Positions 29,973 to 31,561 of a stretch of 64,000 nucleotides of DNA are shown here, one piece after another. Under the pieces are notes generated by a model. That model was not told where the DNA came from. It saw nothing but the letters and a program-made list of their open reading frames with translations, and did no database searches. The DNA is taken from positions 12,179 through 76,178 of the forward strand of contig JAHJOV010000010.1 of assembly GCA_018820085.1 (NCBI GenBank). Direction: 5' to 3'. The DNA comes from Patescibacteria group bacterium. Its GTDB lineage: Bacteria > Patescibacteriota > Minisyncoccia > Portnoybacterales > UBA2143. Position 1 is the first letter of the stretch; every line of letters starts with the position of its first letter. The position numbers were made by a program, and so were the translations under genes.

Positions 29973-30016
29973 CCGACTAGTCAAACCAATCTAGTTGACC
30001 AGTCGGTTTTTTAAAT
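29973..30016. terminator. Bidirectional intrinsic terminator hairpin between the convergent arsM and RT genes
   Basis: aaaaccgactagtcaaaccaatctagttgaccagtcggtttttt. Long perfect stem with A-tract on one side and T-tract on the other. Confidence 0.65.
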
Positions 30017-31015
30017 CGGGAGAGAGAGTTGTCCTCTCTTGGTGGTATTAATTATTTCTCTTAGCAGTCGATATTGATTATAAAGCTCAGCGACCTGGTT
30101 TGGAAGCGCTCGTCCTTGGTAAATACTCTTTAAATAGTTGATTTTTCCTCTGATTTCTCTGAATTTCCCCTCAGAAAAATCTTCTTTATCAAGAGCCTCC
30201 TGGATTACCCACCTATAATCAGCTAATTTCTCATCAGCCACTCCTATTTTCCTTTCCCCATCCCTGGGTCCCTCAATTACTAAGCCCAAAAATTCAAAGT
30301 GAACTTCCTTTTCCCCTGCCTCTCGATAAGAAGTTTTCTCTTCGGGAATTTTGAAATTCCCAAGACTCAGACTCTTAACTATCTTGATTGCCAACTTTCT
30401 TTCTTCTTCGGGAATTGTTTTTTGAGTGGCAGAGATGGCGAAATTATCGACATAGCGAGTGACCTGATAACCTCTTTTCTGAGAAAAGCCAAACAGTACT
30501 CGATCGGTAGTATTCAAAATCAGATTAAAAACAGTTGGCGAAGAAGCATAACCCTGGGGTAAAAACCCGTCTTCGGATTTTTCGGTTGGCGAGTAACAGA
30601 TTAAATCTGCCATCAAATCAGCCACTGCCTTCTTAAAACCAATCCACCGAAAATTTGCTGCCACTTGCTTCTTTCTTGTCGAAGGAAAAGCATCCTTGAT
30701 GTCAAAAGTAAAAAAAGCATTGGCCCGAAGATGAGGGAAAACTGCCGTCCGATGCGACCTCCCAGGTACAAAGCTATGGCTAATTTCAGAAATGGAATAA
30801 GGATAAATTTTCCCGGCTATTCTGACTTGAATTTCGTTTAAGGGCCAGCGAGCGGCCTGAATTTGTCTTTTGCCAGCTGGCTTCTTTGGAATAAACCAAA
30901 CATGATAAGCCTTTTTAGTTTCCAGCATTGAGAGAGCTTGAAAAATTAAATCTTGCGAGACTCCCAAAATCTTAGCCAATTCCGAGATTACCTCTCTTTT
31001 CGCTAATCCTGCCAA
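30011..31015 (-). CDS. Retron-type reverse transcriptase (334 aa); motif C reads YVDN instead of YxDD; TTG start
   Basis: RT motifs: A FTFDIKDAFPS, B' LPQGYASSPTVFNLIL, C TRYVDNFAISA, then FLGLVIEG (VTG-region analogue) and KFREIRGKINYL. Order, spacing and size resemble retron RTs as I recall Ec86 (LPQGAPSSP...NLI...TRYADDLTLSA...VTGLVI...KYKEIRAKIH). No maturase or endonuclease domain. The start codon is TTG at 31013-31015 (rc) preceded by gggggggtgag. Confidence 0.75.
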   Translation of the reverse strand: MAGLAKREVISELAKILGVSQDLIFQALSMLETKKAYHVWFIPKKPAGKRQIQAARWPLNEIQVRIAGKIYPYSISEISHSFVPGRSHRTAVFPHLRANAFFTFDIKDAFPSTRKKQVAANFRWIGFKKAVADLMADLICYSPTEKSEDGFLPQGYASSPTVFNLILNTTDRVLFGFSQKRGYQVTRYVDNFAISATQKTIPEEERKLAIKIVKSLSLGNFKIPEEKTSYREAGEKEVHFEFLGLVIEGPRDGERKIGVADEKLADYRWVIQEALDKEDFSEGKFREIRGKINYLKSIYQGRALPNQVAELYNQYRLLREIINTTKRGQLSLPI

Positions 31016-31340
31016 TCAACTCACCCCCCCTTCAATACAAAATTTTTAAGGTACAATTTACCTTTGAAGTGCACCACTCAGGTGCTGCATTTGCATTTTA
31101 CTAATTTTGAACCCTACTGTCAAATAGCAAATAGCTGCACAAGATGAGATATACAAGGAAAAACTAGCTCAAATGCAAGGGAAAATAGTCAGCACTAAAT
31201 TTGTAGCTGTCAAACCCCGTTAGAAATTTTGTGATTTCGGGGTAAGTCTAACCGTATTTCCCTGAAATTTTTAACGGGGTCAAACCAAAAGAATAGGAGT
31301 GATACTAACGAGTCTTCAGTTGAGGGCTTACTTGATGGTT

Positions 31341-31375
31341 CAATTTGACTTTTGTACAACAATTTGACTTTTGTA
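31341..31375. promoter_or_regulatory. Tandem direct repeat caatttgacttttgta x2 (19-bp period) carrying TTGACT boxes, upstream of the leader/RmuC unit
   Basis: Copies at 31341-31356 and 31360-31375, followed by tatatatactatggtaatg. Candidate promoter or operator. Confidence 0.4.
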
Positions 31376-31472
31376 TATATACTATGGTAATGTTTAATAT
31401 TACCAAAATGGGTTGTACTAGGGGTTAGCGGCAAAGCACCTTCCCATTAAAAGAAAGGAGGAATGGAAAACG

Positions 31473-31496
31473 ACTATAAGCGCTGAATGGATTGGA
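31473..31496 (+). CDS. Candidate 7-aa leader peptide (MENDYKR) preceded by an RBS and a hairpin-motif copy
   Basis: aaaggagg, then atg gaa aac gac tat aag cgc tga. Sits between UTR motif copy 1 and copy 2. Confidence 0.2.
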
Positions 31497-31507
31497 GTTT
31501 TAGTAAT

Positions 31508-31552
31508 CCCTGCCACTAGGGGGTAGTGGTAACGCACATTAACAAAAAGGAG
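31508..31552 (+). promoter_or_regulatory. Conserved 5'-UTR hairpin element, copy 2 (ccact-AGGGGGT-agtgg, then TAACGCACATTAACAAAAAGGAGG)
   Basis: Near-identical element at 32904-32952 with a compensatory stem change (ccacT...Agtgg versus ccacG...Cgtgg). A partial relative is at 31425-31450. Each sits directly upstream of an RBS and start codon. Confidence 0.55.
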
Positions 31553-31561
31553 GAAAATAAG

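What the first reader, a model, noticed from the sequence alone, without database searches (positions are those of the whole stretch)
30011..31561. Retron-type reverse transcriptase with YVDN in place of YxDD and a 550-bp structured non-coding region upstream
The 334-aa RT has the motif order and spacing of retron RTs (FTFDIKDAFPS; LPQGYASSPTVFNLIL; TRYVDNFAISA; FLGLVI; KFREIRGKINYL) and no maturase or endonuclease domains. The second catalytic aspartate of motif C is Asn (YVDN). That would be unusual for an active polymerase and could indicate an altered or lost polymerase function.

The 5' region on the RT strand (31016-31340) contains several hairpins and inverted repeats: ccccgttagaaattt/aaatttttaacgggg at 31214-31281; gcacc-actca-ggtgc at 31071-31085; the tgcaaatgca palindrome. 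These could correspond to an msr/msd-like ncRNA with a1/a2 repeats. No same-strand effector gene follows the RT; the neighbours are divergent (RmuC-like, coiled-coil HhH). This would be an uncharacterised retron-like module in a CPR genome.
Basis: partly seen in the sequence, partly recalled or inferred. Interest (0 to 1): 0.8.

Follow-up and report, generated by a model that had tools for sequence, protein, structure and literature searches.

The report
Solo retron-type reverse transcriptase, YVDN site
This is an intact, selectively maintained reverse transcriptase gene from a candidate-phyla-radiation bacterium, related to retron enzymes, whose catalytic motif reads YVDN rather than YxDD; the "structured RNA" proposed upstream is a gene relic, a tiny transposon and an ordinary promoter.

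Summary
The 334-aa RT ORF (30011-31015, minus strand, TTG start) is real. It belongs to the retron/retron-like RT superfamily by HMM, PDB-sequence and fold comparison, but fits no defined retron type.

YVDN is not decay:
- Asn is the ancestral state of a tight Patescibacteria family (23+ clusters, dN/dS 0.13-0.3).
- The first Asp, motif A Asp and motif D Lys are invariant.
- Asp reappears at least 4 times at tree tips.
- Two 13-kb loci from one strain differ at only two bases, one being this codon.
- Related unclassified retron-like RTs also carry YxDN, YxDE or YxDC.

The msr/msd proposal fails. The upstream 545 nt folds no better than shuffles (z = -0.6) and is not conserved even in the 91%-identical relative. 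It consists of the last 22 codons of a split methyltransferase gene, a 65-nt MITE whose terminal repeats are the supposed a1/a2, a TTGACA-17-TAAAAT promoter and a window-specific 26-nt insertion.

Family-wide, only promoter, about 50-nt UTR, SD, TTG start and a terminator hairpin are conserved. Some lineages have no room for an ncRNA. No effector is conserved, but RmuC, Ku or Mu-Gam genes lie within two genes in 5 of 8 informative lineages.

Verdict: a solo retron-clade RT. Its function is unknown; a role at DNA ends is the leading guess.

The parts
30011..31015 (-). Reverse transcriptase CDS, 334 aa, TTG start. Motif A is FTFDIKDAF (D105), motif B LPQGYASSP, motif C RYVDNF (D190, N191), motif D KIPEEKTSY (K227), motif E/region Y FEFLGLVI. 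Region X is RSHRTAVFPH.
   Evidence: ORF and translation. Pfam RVT_1 1.2e-14. PADLOC retron RT models up to 2.6e-41. PDB retron RTs. AF2 pLDDT 92.3 with top Foldseek hits all retron RTs. dN/dS 0.13-0.3.
30443..30445 (-). Codon 191, AAT (Asn), in place of the second Asp of YxDD. GAT (Asp) occurs in some close relatives.
31022..31030 (-). Shine-Dalgarno sequence GGGGGGGTG (family consensus GGAGGTG), 6-7 nt before the TTG start.
   Evidence: Conserved in all 13 lineages aligned.
31095..31123 (-). Sigma-70 promoter of the RT: TTGACA, 17-nt spacer, TAAAAT (11 of 12 consensus matches).
   Evidence: Promoter scan. Conserved in position and sequence in most lineages, often with TGn before the -10.
31061..31094 (-). 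Window-specific insertion of about 26 nt in the 5' leader. It holds the tgcaaatgca palindrome and the gcacc-tgagt-ggtgc hairpin.
   Evidence: Absent from L002 (91% identical RT) and all other lineages. The leader folds no better than shuffles, z = -0.56.
31215..31279 (.). 65-nt MITE-like insertion with 15-nt terminal inverted repeats (31215-31229 and 31265-31279). It is flanked by a TTTGA(C) duplication at 31210-31214 and 31280-31284.
   Evidence: The empty site is contiguous in L002 (7460-7480). A larger copy with the same termini lies after the RT terminator in L033..
31155..31220 (+). Relic of the 3' end of an arsenite-methyltransferase-like gene (last 22 codons, KEKLAQMQGKIVSTKFVAVKPR).
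   Evidence: tblastn 91% to the C-terminus of the L002 methyltransferase. The window's own orthologue (26063-26749) lacks that end..
31279..31353 (+). Relic of the DNA that lies downstream of that methyltransferase gene in the relative.
   Evidence: 79% identical to L002 7403-7476.
29969..30010 (-). Hairpin plus U-tract directly after the stop codon. The stem is AAAACCGACTGGTCAA / TTGACTAGTCGGTTTT. It is a likely intrinsic, possibly bidirectional, terminator.
   Evidence: The core AACCGAC...GTCGGTT is invariant in 11 lineages. Inner pairs vary with G.U wobbles and some compensatory changes that work on the RT strand..
31562..32791 (+). Divergent neighbour: protein with an N-terminal membrane helix, a coiled coil and a RmuC nuclease-like domain.
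   Evidence: Pfam RmuC for the orthologue. PADLOC RTasRmuC 98 bits. Also next to the RT in lineages A2 and D.
32961..34172 (+). Coiled-coil protein with a C-terminal helix-hairpin-helix. It occupies the position that Mu-Gam or Ku holds in relatives.
   Evidence: Weak HHH_5 and RNA_pol_A_CTD hits only. Positional comparison.

Best explanation
The gene is a free-standing (solo) member of the retron/retron-like RT superfamily. It forms a self-contained monocistronic cassette of about 1.2 kb: strong sigma-70 promoter, leader of about 50-70 nt, perfect Shine-Dalgarno, TTG start, RT ORF, terminator hairpin. There is no msr/msd gene in cis and no fixed effector.

It belongs to a compact Patescibacteria-specific family. 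In that family Asn at the second position of the catalytic DD pair is the ancestral, selectively maintained state.

Shown:
- The protein is intact and under purifying selection.
- It has a complete fingers-palm-thumb retron-like fold.
- It keeps the motif A Asp, the first motif C Asp, motif B, the motif D Lys and the primer-grip Gly.

Inferred:
- It is still a nucleotidyl transferase, with one carboxylate of the metal site replaced by an amide. This would resemble GDN in mononegavirus polymerases and YVDN in nematode belpaovirus RTs, and probably changes metal preference or turnover.
- It acts in trans on RNA or DNA substrates together with DNA-end proteins. In 5 of 8 informative lineages a RmuC nuclease-like gene and/or a Ku or Mu-Gam end-binding gene lies within two genes.
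- My preferred mechanism is short-patch, template-dependent synthesis at DNA ends held by Ku or Gam and trimmed by RmuC. The module would be carried on recombinase-associated variable islands, and would serve end repair or restriction of linear foreign DNA.

The 545 nt upstream of the RT in this window is not part of the system. It is rearrangement debris (a methyltransferase relic and a MITE) plus the promoter and leader.
For: Retron-clade affinity:
- PADLOC RT_II-A 2.6e-41, with III-A, IX, XIII and VI close behind.
- NCBIfam retron_St85_RT scores 127 bits; group II RT scores 48 bits.
- A family profile hits PDB retron RTs Ec67, Kva2, Ec86, Eco8, Ec83 and Ec78 at 1e-12 to 6e-23. Group II RTs score 4e-8 or worse.
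- The AF2 model has pLDDT 92.3, and its top 18 Foldseek PDB hits are all retron RTs.

The family is distinct:
- Scores drop from 437 or more bits to 238 bits or fewer outside it.

YVDN is functional, not decay:
- N is present in 19 of 24 representatives, and D190, D105 and K227 are invariant.
- dN/dS is 0.13-0.3.
- N is basal, and D arises at least 4 times at tips.
- L002 and L009 differ at only 2 of 13,002 bases, in codons 191 and 196.
- The sister protein P0028 has YVDC. The nearest 156 retron-like domains include 19 DN, 4 DE, 1 DC and 1 DG.
- YVDN occurs in proliferating belpaoviruses (PMC554778, PMC9094657).

No cis ncRNA:
- Only the promoter, leader, SD and terminator are conserved.
- The upstream intergenic space is 141 nt in L022 and 163 nt in L011. 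Downstream it is 43-73 nt in L010, L011 and L025.
- There is no suppression of synonymous change inside the ORF.
- Rfam is negative.
- The window's upstream region gives z = -0.62.
- Its parts are identified.

Link to DNA-end proteins:
- RmuC lies next to the RT in lineages A1, A2 and D.
- Mu-Gam is present in A2 and G.
- Ku is present in D and J.
- The arrangements differ between lineages.
Against: - No biochemical evidence exists that a DN motif C supports reverse transcription in any bacterial RT. In HIV-1 and MoMLV, mutation of either Asp inactivates the enzyme (as cited in PMC554778).
- Three informative lineages (C, E, H) and lineage F have no Ku, Gam or RmuC gene nearby. Their neighbours are a PP2C phosphatase, a NYN nuclease, DUF429, DUF488/lactamase or DAGK.
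- The association could therefore reflect co-residence on the same mobile island rather than function.
- RmuC is a common bacterial gene. The PADLOC RTasRmuC hit may be generic RmuC homology.
- No template RNA has been identified.
- Most contigs are short, so a trans-encoded ncRNA or effector cannot be excluded.
Confidence: 0.45

Rival explanations
1. It is a canonical retron whose msr/msd ncRNA and effector are encoded elsewhere (in trans), or are too divergent to be recognised. The RT would make msDNA that holds a toxin in check.
For: The RT is clearly retron-like in sequence and fold. A related CPR YVDN RT (P0058, Ca. Portnoybacteria) has a 17-nt a1/a2-like inverted repeat directly upstream, enclosing a 230-nt region that folds better than shuffles (z = -2.57). 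Retron effectors are notoriously variable (PMC7736814).
Against: Retrons are defined by a contiguous ncRNA (PMC7736814). Here the conserved promoter sits only about 50 nt before the start codon. Lineages C and H have no room on either side. There is no conserved flanking block beyond the promoter and the terminator. Neighbours change completely between lineages with 60-70% identical RTs. The NAxxH and VTG signatures are altered to AVFPH and FLG.
Confidence: 0.15
2. It is a catalytically dead, exapted RT-fold protein. It would bind nucleic acid, or act as a scaffold or regulator, without polymerising. Asn191 would mark the loss of catalysis, and occasional Asp variants would be neutral noise.
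For: Mutation of the second Asp of YxDD inactivates retroviral RTs (PMC554778). The position tolerates N, D, C, E and G across related lineages, as expected if its chemistry no longer matters. Motif B Gln is Leu in several lineages (LPLG). No template has been found.
Against: All other catalytic and substrate-binding residues remain invariant over 45-91% identity: D105, D190, K227, the F110 steric gate, the SP of motif B and the primer-grip G. That is hard to explain without catalysis. N is strongly preferred over long times, not freely drifting. One of only two SNPs in 13 kb falls on this codon, which argues for selection at the site rather than neutrality. GDN polymerases (established knowledge) and YVDN retroelements (PMC9094657) are active.
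Confidence: 0.25
3. It is the RT component of a two- or three-gene anti-phage system. The membrane-anchored RmuC nuclease would be the effector, comparable to DRT2 variants with a TM-RmuC partner or to Shield, and Ku or Gam would sense linear phage DNA ends.
For: The PADLOC 'RTasRmuC' (DRT) model hits the neighbouring RmuC at 98 bits and the lineage-D RmuC at 153 bits. UG2/DRT2 variants have an associated TM-RmuC cluster (PMC9226505). RmuC-domain ShdA is a defence effector (PMC10270631). The locus lies in a recombinase-associated variable island that also carries DUF4145, methyltransferases and HTH genes.
Against: The RT is not UG/Abi-like: Drt2 scores 15.8 bits against a cutoff of 390. RmuC is absent from most lineages. 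There is no ncRNA of the kind DRT2 requires. This rival overlaps the best explanation and differs only in the biological purpose.
Confidence: 0.12
4. It is a decaying pseudogene of a retron or group II intron RT.
For: The catalytic motif is non-canonical, and the gene sits in a rearranged region next to gene relics and a MITE.
Against: The ORF is full length in every lineage. dN/dS is 0.13-0.3. Promoter, SD and terminator are conserved. The structure prediction is high-confidence. N is ancestral and widespread.
Confidence: 0.02

Closest known systems
Retron reverse transcriptases (Mestre 2020 types II-A, III-A, IX, XIII; Ec86, Ec67, Kva2, Ec78 structures)
   Same: Best sequence and fold matches. 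Same length and the same fingers-palm-thumb layout with an N-terminal helical extension. The His of region X and the Gly of region Y are kept.
   Different: It scores far below true members of any type: 140 bits against 350 bits for a genuine II-A RT, and 127 against the NCBIfam cutoff of 235. It has YVDN instead of YADD, AVFPH instead of NAxxH, and FLG instead of VTG. It has no contiguous msr/msd and no conserved effector.
Group II intron-like free-standing RTs (G2L4) that act in double-strand-break repair
   Same: Solo RT gene without its ancestral RNA partner. It carries a variant catalytic tetrad (YIDD in G2L4, from my own knowledge). A link to DNA-end repair is suggested here by the Ku, Gam and RmuC neighbours.
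   Different: It descends from a different RT lineage (retron-like, not group II). The G2L4 structure is only a distant fold hit (rank 25). Repair activity is not shown here.
Polymerases with Asp-Asn in motif C: nematode Belpaoviridae RTs (Cer7-13, Atlas virus; YVDN) and Mononegavirales L proteins (GDN)
   Same: The same substitution of the second motif C Asp by Asn, in enzymes that evidently function (PMC554778, PMC9094657; GDN from established knowledge).
   Different: The lineages are unrelated (eukaryotic LTR elements and RNA-virus RdRps). The belpaovirus case has never been tested biochemically either.
DRT2/UG2 variants with an associated TM-RmuC protein; Shield (ShdA)
   Same: An RT gene sits beside a membrane-anchored, coiled-coil RmuC-domain protein (PMC9226505, PMC10270631).
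   Different: This RT is not UG/Abi class. DRT2 needs a structured ncRNA, and none is found here. RmuC is present in only 3 of the lineages.

Membership tests
Retron (RT + msr/msd ncRNA + effector) | The RT clusters with retron/retron-like RTs rather than with group II, DGR or UG/Abi RTs. | tested here: met
   PADLOC, NCBIfam, PDB profile search and Foldseek all rank retron RTs first. No specific type is matched, and the NCBIfam retron cutoffs are not reached.
Retron (RT + msr/msd ncRNA + effector) | A contiguous ncRNA gene (msr-msd flanked by a1/a2 inverted repeats) next to the RT. | tested here: not met
   Only the promoter, a leader of about 50 nt and the terminator are conserved. Lineages C and H have no room. 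The window's inverted repeat is the terminal repeat pair of a MITE. Fold z = -0.62 and Rfam is negative.
Retron (RT + msr/msd ncRNA + effector) | Region X NAxxH and region Y VTG signatures (PMC7736814). | tested here: not met
   Region X is AVFPH (His invariant, Asn replaced by an invariant Ala). Region Y is FLG (Gly kept)..
Retron (RT + msr/msd ncRNA + effector) | Catalytic YADD/YxDD. | tested here: not met
   YVDN here and in most of the family.
Retron (RT + msr/msd ncRNA + effector) | A specifically associated effector gene or fused effector domain. | tested here: inconclusive
   No gene is conserved across lineages. RmuC, Ku or Gam recur in 5 of 8 informative lineages.
Retron (RT + msr/msd ncRNA + effector) | Production of msDNA primed from a branching G 2'-OH. 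| not testable with these tools
   Needs expression and nucleic-acid analysis.
Group II intron RT/maturase | Maturase (X) domain, with or without an En domain, and a flanking intron RNA (domains I-VI). | tested here: not met
   TIGR04416 scores 48 bits against a cutoff of 300. Only RVT_1 is found in Pfam. There are no Rfam intron hits.
Diversity-generating retroelement | A TR/VR repeat pair with adenine-specific differences near the RT, and an Avd accessory gene. | tested here: not met
   No such repeat exists in 24000-37000. The only long direct repeat is a pair of paralogous methyltransferase genes. DGR RTs are not among the sequence or fold hits.
UG/Abi (DRT) reverse transcriptases | Membership of UG/Abi RT clades (NCBIfam Drt models). 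| tested here: not met
   Drt2 scores 15.8 bits (cutoff 390) and Drt4 13.4 bits (cutoff 450).

The most novel reading that the evidence does not exclude
A CPR-wide lineage of solo retron-derived RTs has traded the second catalytic Asp for Asn and lost its msr/msd. It now works as a Ku/Gam- and RmuC-coupled polymerase that copies RNA, or short DNA, into DNA ends. That would be a bacterial RNA-templated end-repair or end-restriction pathway. Recurrent Asn-to-Asp switching would act as a population-level tuning knob for activity.
Probability: 0.12. Interest if true: 0.85.

Novelty: new variant of a known kind. Interest (0 to 1): 0.5.

Why it matters
Retron-type RTs are being mined both as defence systems and as genome-editing tools. 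All characterised ones have YxDD, a cis ncRNA and an effector.

This family lacks all three yet is conserved under purifying selection across Patescibacteria. That implies a retron-derived enzyme with a different mode of action.

The conserved Asp-Asn catalytic pair also occurs in several neighbouring unclassified retron-like lineages. It gives a direct test of whether a bacterial RT can work with one carboxylate fewer. Its repeated flips back to Asp, one of which is among only two differences between two otherwise identical 13-kb loci, suggest the site is under unusual selection.

The recurring Ku, Mu-Gam and RmuC neighbours point to an unexplored link between reverse transcription and DNA-end metabolism in organisms with minimal repair repertoires.

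Tried and rejected
- msr/msd upstream of the RT. Rejected by comparison with 13 lineages, by fold statistics and by identifying each repeat.
- ncRNA downstream of the RT. Only a terminator hairpin is conserved, and the stop codon lies inside it in four lineages.
- ncRNA hidden inside the ORF. Synonymous divergence is flat at 0.28-0.52 along the gene.
- The GC-rich repeats R1/R2 (24259-24357, 25751-25959, 29768-29876, 34342-34436) as an RT-linked RNA. They occur only in this strain group and derive from a tRNA-proximal or recombinase and methyltransferase 5' region.
- Assignment to a PADLOC retron type. No type stands out. The closest outgroups score best, though weakly, on RT_XIII.
- Phage origin. 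There is no relative in IMG/VR.
- Literature searches for retron plus Patescibacteria, YVDN and YADN. They gave only the belpaovirus precedent. One search failed on a term that was too short.
- Pseudogene hypothesis. Rejected.
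Full report
**1. The observation**

- Pfam finds only RVT_1 (1.2e-14), with no maturase or endonuclease domain.
- In a profile alignment to retron Ec67, 'RYvDnfaiSt' pairs with 'RYADDITIST'. Asn191 therefore occupies the second Asp of YxDD.
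- The protein is identical to NCBI entries named only 'reverse transcriptase family protein [Patescibacteria group bacterium]'. One sister cluster is from Candidatus Nealsonbacteria.
- The quoted inverted repeats are physically present.

The sequence-level observations are correct.

**2. What kind of RT it is**

All four independent comparisons put it with retron RTs.
- PADLOC retron RT models score 2.6e-41 (RT_II-A), with III-A, IX, XIII and VI close behind.
- NCBIfam retron_St85_RT scores 127 bits. The group II RT/maturase scores 48 bits, and Drt2 and Drt4 score about 15 bits.
- A family profile hits the solved retron RTs Ec67, Kva2, Ec86, Eco8, Ec83 and Ec78 at 6e-23 to 1e-12. Group II RTs score 4e-8 or worse.
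- An AlphaFold model (pLDDT 92.3) has retron RTs as its top 18 PDB neighbours, with TM-scores of 0.62-0.78.

It is nevertheless not a member of any defined retron type.
- A genuine II-A RT scores 353 bits on the model that gives this protein 140 bits.
- The NCBIfam cutoff of 235 is missed.
- An exhaustive search of 1.8 billion representatives shows a tight island. Three representatives score 437 bits or more, and the next hit scores 238 bits.
- The retron signatures named by Mestre et al. (PMC7736814) are only half kept. NAxxH is AVFPH, with His invariant and Asn replaced by an invariant Ala. VTG is FLG, with Gly kept.

**3. YVDN is ancestral and maintained**

Twenty-three homologous clusters (45-91% identity) were found, all from Patescibacteria-type metagenomes.
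- Motif C is Y[V/A]D[N/D], with Asn in 19 of 24 representatives.
- D105 (motif A), D190, K227 (motif D), the SP of motif B and the primer-grip Gly are invariant or nearly so.
- Pairwise dN/dS is 0.13-0.30.
- On a tree of 71 distinct sequences the basal branches carry Asn. Asp appears at least four times, always at shallow tips. It is always AAT to GAT.
- L002 and L009, the same 13-kb locus from two samples, differ at only two bases. Both are A/G changes, in RT codons 191 (N/D) and 196 (T/A).

The next relative outside the family, P0028, reads YVDC.
- Among the 156 nearest retron-like RT domains, 19 have DN, 4 DE, 1 DC and 1 DG.
- In a neighbour-joining tree these sit around this family.
- Most match no PADLOC type at 1e-50. 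The tree is star-like and was not bootstrapped, so monophyly is not established.

Precedent for a working YVDN comes from nematode belpaoviruses (PMC554778, PMC9094657). GDN in mononegavirus polymerases is a second precedent (established knowledge). The 'decaying pseudogene' reading is rejected. Whether Asn191 supports catalysis is inferred, not shown.

**4. The upstream 545 nt**

It is not an ncRNA.
- *Statistics.* The RT-strand fold of 31016-31400 has z = -0.62. The leader has z = -0.56.
- *Databases.* Rfam finds nothing.
- *Comparison.* The 91%-identical relative has only 263 nt in this intergenic region. The window's extra DNA matches sequence that lies downstream of the RT in that relative.

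The parts are as follows.
- 31155-31220 (+) encodes KEKLAQMQGKIVSTKFVAVKPR. These are the last 22 residues of the relative's arsenite-methyltransferase-like protein. The window orthologue at 26063-26749 has lost that C-terminus.
- 31279-31353 is the DNA that follows that gene in the relative.
- Between these two pieces sits a 65-nt element (31215-31279) with 15-nt terminal inverted repeats and a TTTGA(C) duplication. The unoccupied site is contiguous in L002. A longer copy with the same ends lies after the RT terminator in L033.
- 31123-31095 is a TTGACA-17-TAAAAT promoter, matching 11 of 12 consensus positions.
- 31094-31061 is a 26-nt insertion unique to this window. It holds the tgcaaatgca palindrome and the gcacc/ggtgc hairpin.
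- 31030-31022 is the Shine-Dalgarno sequence.

**5. What is conserved around the RT family-wide**

Alignments of 13 lineages show only two conserved blocks.
- *Upstream.* A promoter (often with an extended -10 TGn), a leader of about 45-55 nt, GGAGGTG, and a universally conserved TTG start.
- *Downstream.* Directly after or overlapping the stop codon, a hairpin with an invariant AACCGAC/GTCGGTT base and a U-tract. G.U wobbles and a few compensatory changes make it fold on the RT strand.

Space for anything more is limited.
- Upstream intergenic space is as short as 141 nt (L022) and 163 nt (L011).
- Downstream space is 43-73 nt in L010, L011 and L025.
- In L022 a tRNA gene starts 19 nt after the stop.
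- Synonymous divergence inside the ORF is flat.

The unit is therefore a monocistronic RT cassette of about 1.2 kb with no cis msr/msd. That defining retron feature was tested and is not met.

**6. Neighbours**

No gene is conserved in all lineages. DNA-end proteins do recur, in different arrangements.

| Lineage | Neighbouring genes |
|---|---|
| Window (A1) | Divergent TM-RmuC, then a coiled-coil HhH protein |
| A2 | Divergent RmuC, then Mu-Gam |
| D | RT, RmuC and Ku on one strand |
| G | Mu-Gam immediately upstream |
| J | Ku downstream |

That is 5 of 8 lineages with enough flanking sequence.

The other lineages show different neighbours.
- PP2C phosphatase.
- NYN nuclease.
- DUF429.
- DUF488 with either a lactamase or a DAGK gene.

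The same RT protein (P0015) is found in two different upstream contexts. L038 looks like a mosaic of two RT lineages. The cassette therefore moves or recombines.

PADLOC's 'RTasRmuC' DRT model hits the neighbouring RmuC. UG2/DRT2 variants are known to have such a partner (PMC9226505). This may be generic RmuC homology. The family is absent from IMG/VR.

**7. Mechanism**

Shown: an intact, expressed-looking, selectively constrained retron-fold RT with a DN active site, no cis ncRNA and no fixed effector.

Inferred: it is still a polymerase with an altered metal site, and it works in trans with DNA-end binding or processing proteins. I give about 0.45 to the overall picture and about 0.3 to the DNA-end mechanism specifically.

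Rivals:
- An exapted, non-catalytic RT fold (0.25).
- A canonical retron with trans components (0.15). This is kept alive by the Portnoybacteria relative P0058. Its YVDN RT has a convincing a1/a2-like 17-nt repeat around a 230-nt structured region (z = -2.57).
- A RmuC-effector defence system (0.12; it overlaps the best explanation).
- A pseudogene (0.02).

**8. Novelty and score**

I found no description of bacterial retron-like RTs with YxDN in the searchable literature. The finding is best filed as a new variant of a known kind: a solo, retron-derived RT lineage.

Three things remain of interest:
- the conserved DN catalytic pair with recurrent reversion;
- the loss of every retron accessory;
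- the Ku/Gam/RmuC neighbourhood.

Interest is scored at 0.5.

Noticed in passing
window 24188-25959, 29768-29876, 34342-34436; L006 vs L007: A large serine recombinase gene (24223..25719, minus) abuts tRNA-Arg (24188-24264). It is flanked by perfect 99-nt inverted repeats (24259-24357 / 25773-25871). Further inverted repeats (25864-25959 / 34342-34436, 96-97%; 25751-25823 / 29768-29876) bracket the 8.4-kb segment that holds the RT. In lineage G, two assemblies (L006, L007) differ by inversion of the RT-bearing 5-kb segment beside the homologous recombinase. This looks like a shufflon-like invertible region.
   Followed up: partly
L002 vs L009, locus positions 6571 and 6586 (RT codons 191 and 196): Two 13-kb loci from different samples are identical except for two A/G differences 15 nt apart. 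Both are nonsynonymous and both lie in motif C of the RT (N191D, T196A). Position 196 also flips A/T repeatedly among close relatives. No mechanism was identified.
   Followed up: partly
L042 5650-6000 (Ca. Portnoybacteria, protein P0058): A related CPR RT with YVDN lies between Archease and RtcB, followed by an RNase H-like gene and a beta-CASP nuclease. Upstream it has a 17-nt inverted repeat (5695-5712 / 5943-5960) enclosing a 230-nt region that folds better than shuffles (z = -2.57). This is a plausible msr/msd inside an RNA-repair gene cluster.
   Followed up: partly
proteins P0026, P0027, P0029, P0032: The nearest outgroup proteins carry two complete retron-like RT domains in tandem in one polypeptide. 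P0027 additionally has an N-terminal protein-kinase-like region. The first copy reads YLDD and the second YADD.
   Followed up: no
window 31215-31279; L033 2246-2351; L012 1096-1110: A small MITE family with CCCCGTTWRAAATYT termini. The window holds one 65-nt copy with a target duplication. L033 holds a copy of about 105 nt inserted right after the RT terminator.
   Followed up: yes
window 26027-26755 and 31155-31220: An arsenite-methyltransferase-like gene has been split. Its body, truncated at the C-terminus, lies 4.4 kb from a relic of its last 22 codons. A second, HMA-fused paralogue sits at 28403-29704. The 99-nt inverted repeats also contain a degenerate copy of the methyltransferase 5' end.
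   Followed up: partly
RT start codon, window 31013-31015, and all 13 lineages: Every family member starts with TTG preceded by a near-perfect GGAGGTG Shine-Dalgarno and a near-consensus promoter. This conserved pairing of strong transcription and ribosome-binding signals with a weak start codon may cap protein level. NCBI annotations start 29-32 codons too late.
   Followed up: partly
L038 (protein P0004): This RT looks like a recombinant. The nucleotide sequence around motif C is identical to the window's lineage, while the leader and terminator are of the Nealsonbacteria (E) type. It is also one of the Asp191 variants.
   Followed up: no
L002 7125-7203, L022 3660-3733, L014 5206-5284, L007 7972-8046, L033 3313-3583: tRNA genes lie within about 20-1000 nt of the RT cassette in many lineages. 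This fits placement in tRNA-proximal variable or integration regions.
   Followed up: no
window 34562-35368: A DUF4145 protein with an N-terminal Cys-rich region lies just outside the inverted-repeat-bounded segment. A fragment resembling the 5' end of a serine recombinase gene lies at about 34230-34340.
   Followed up: no
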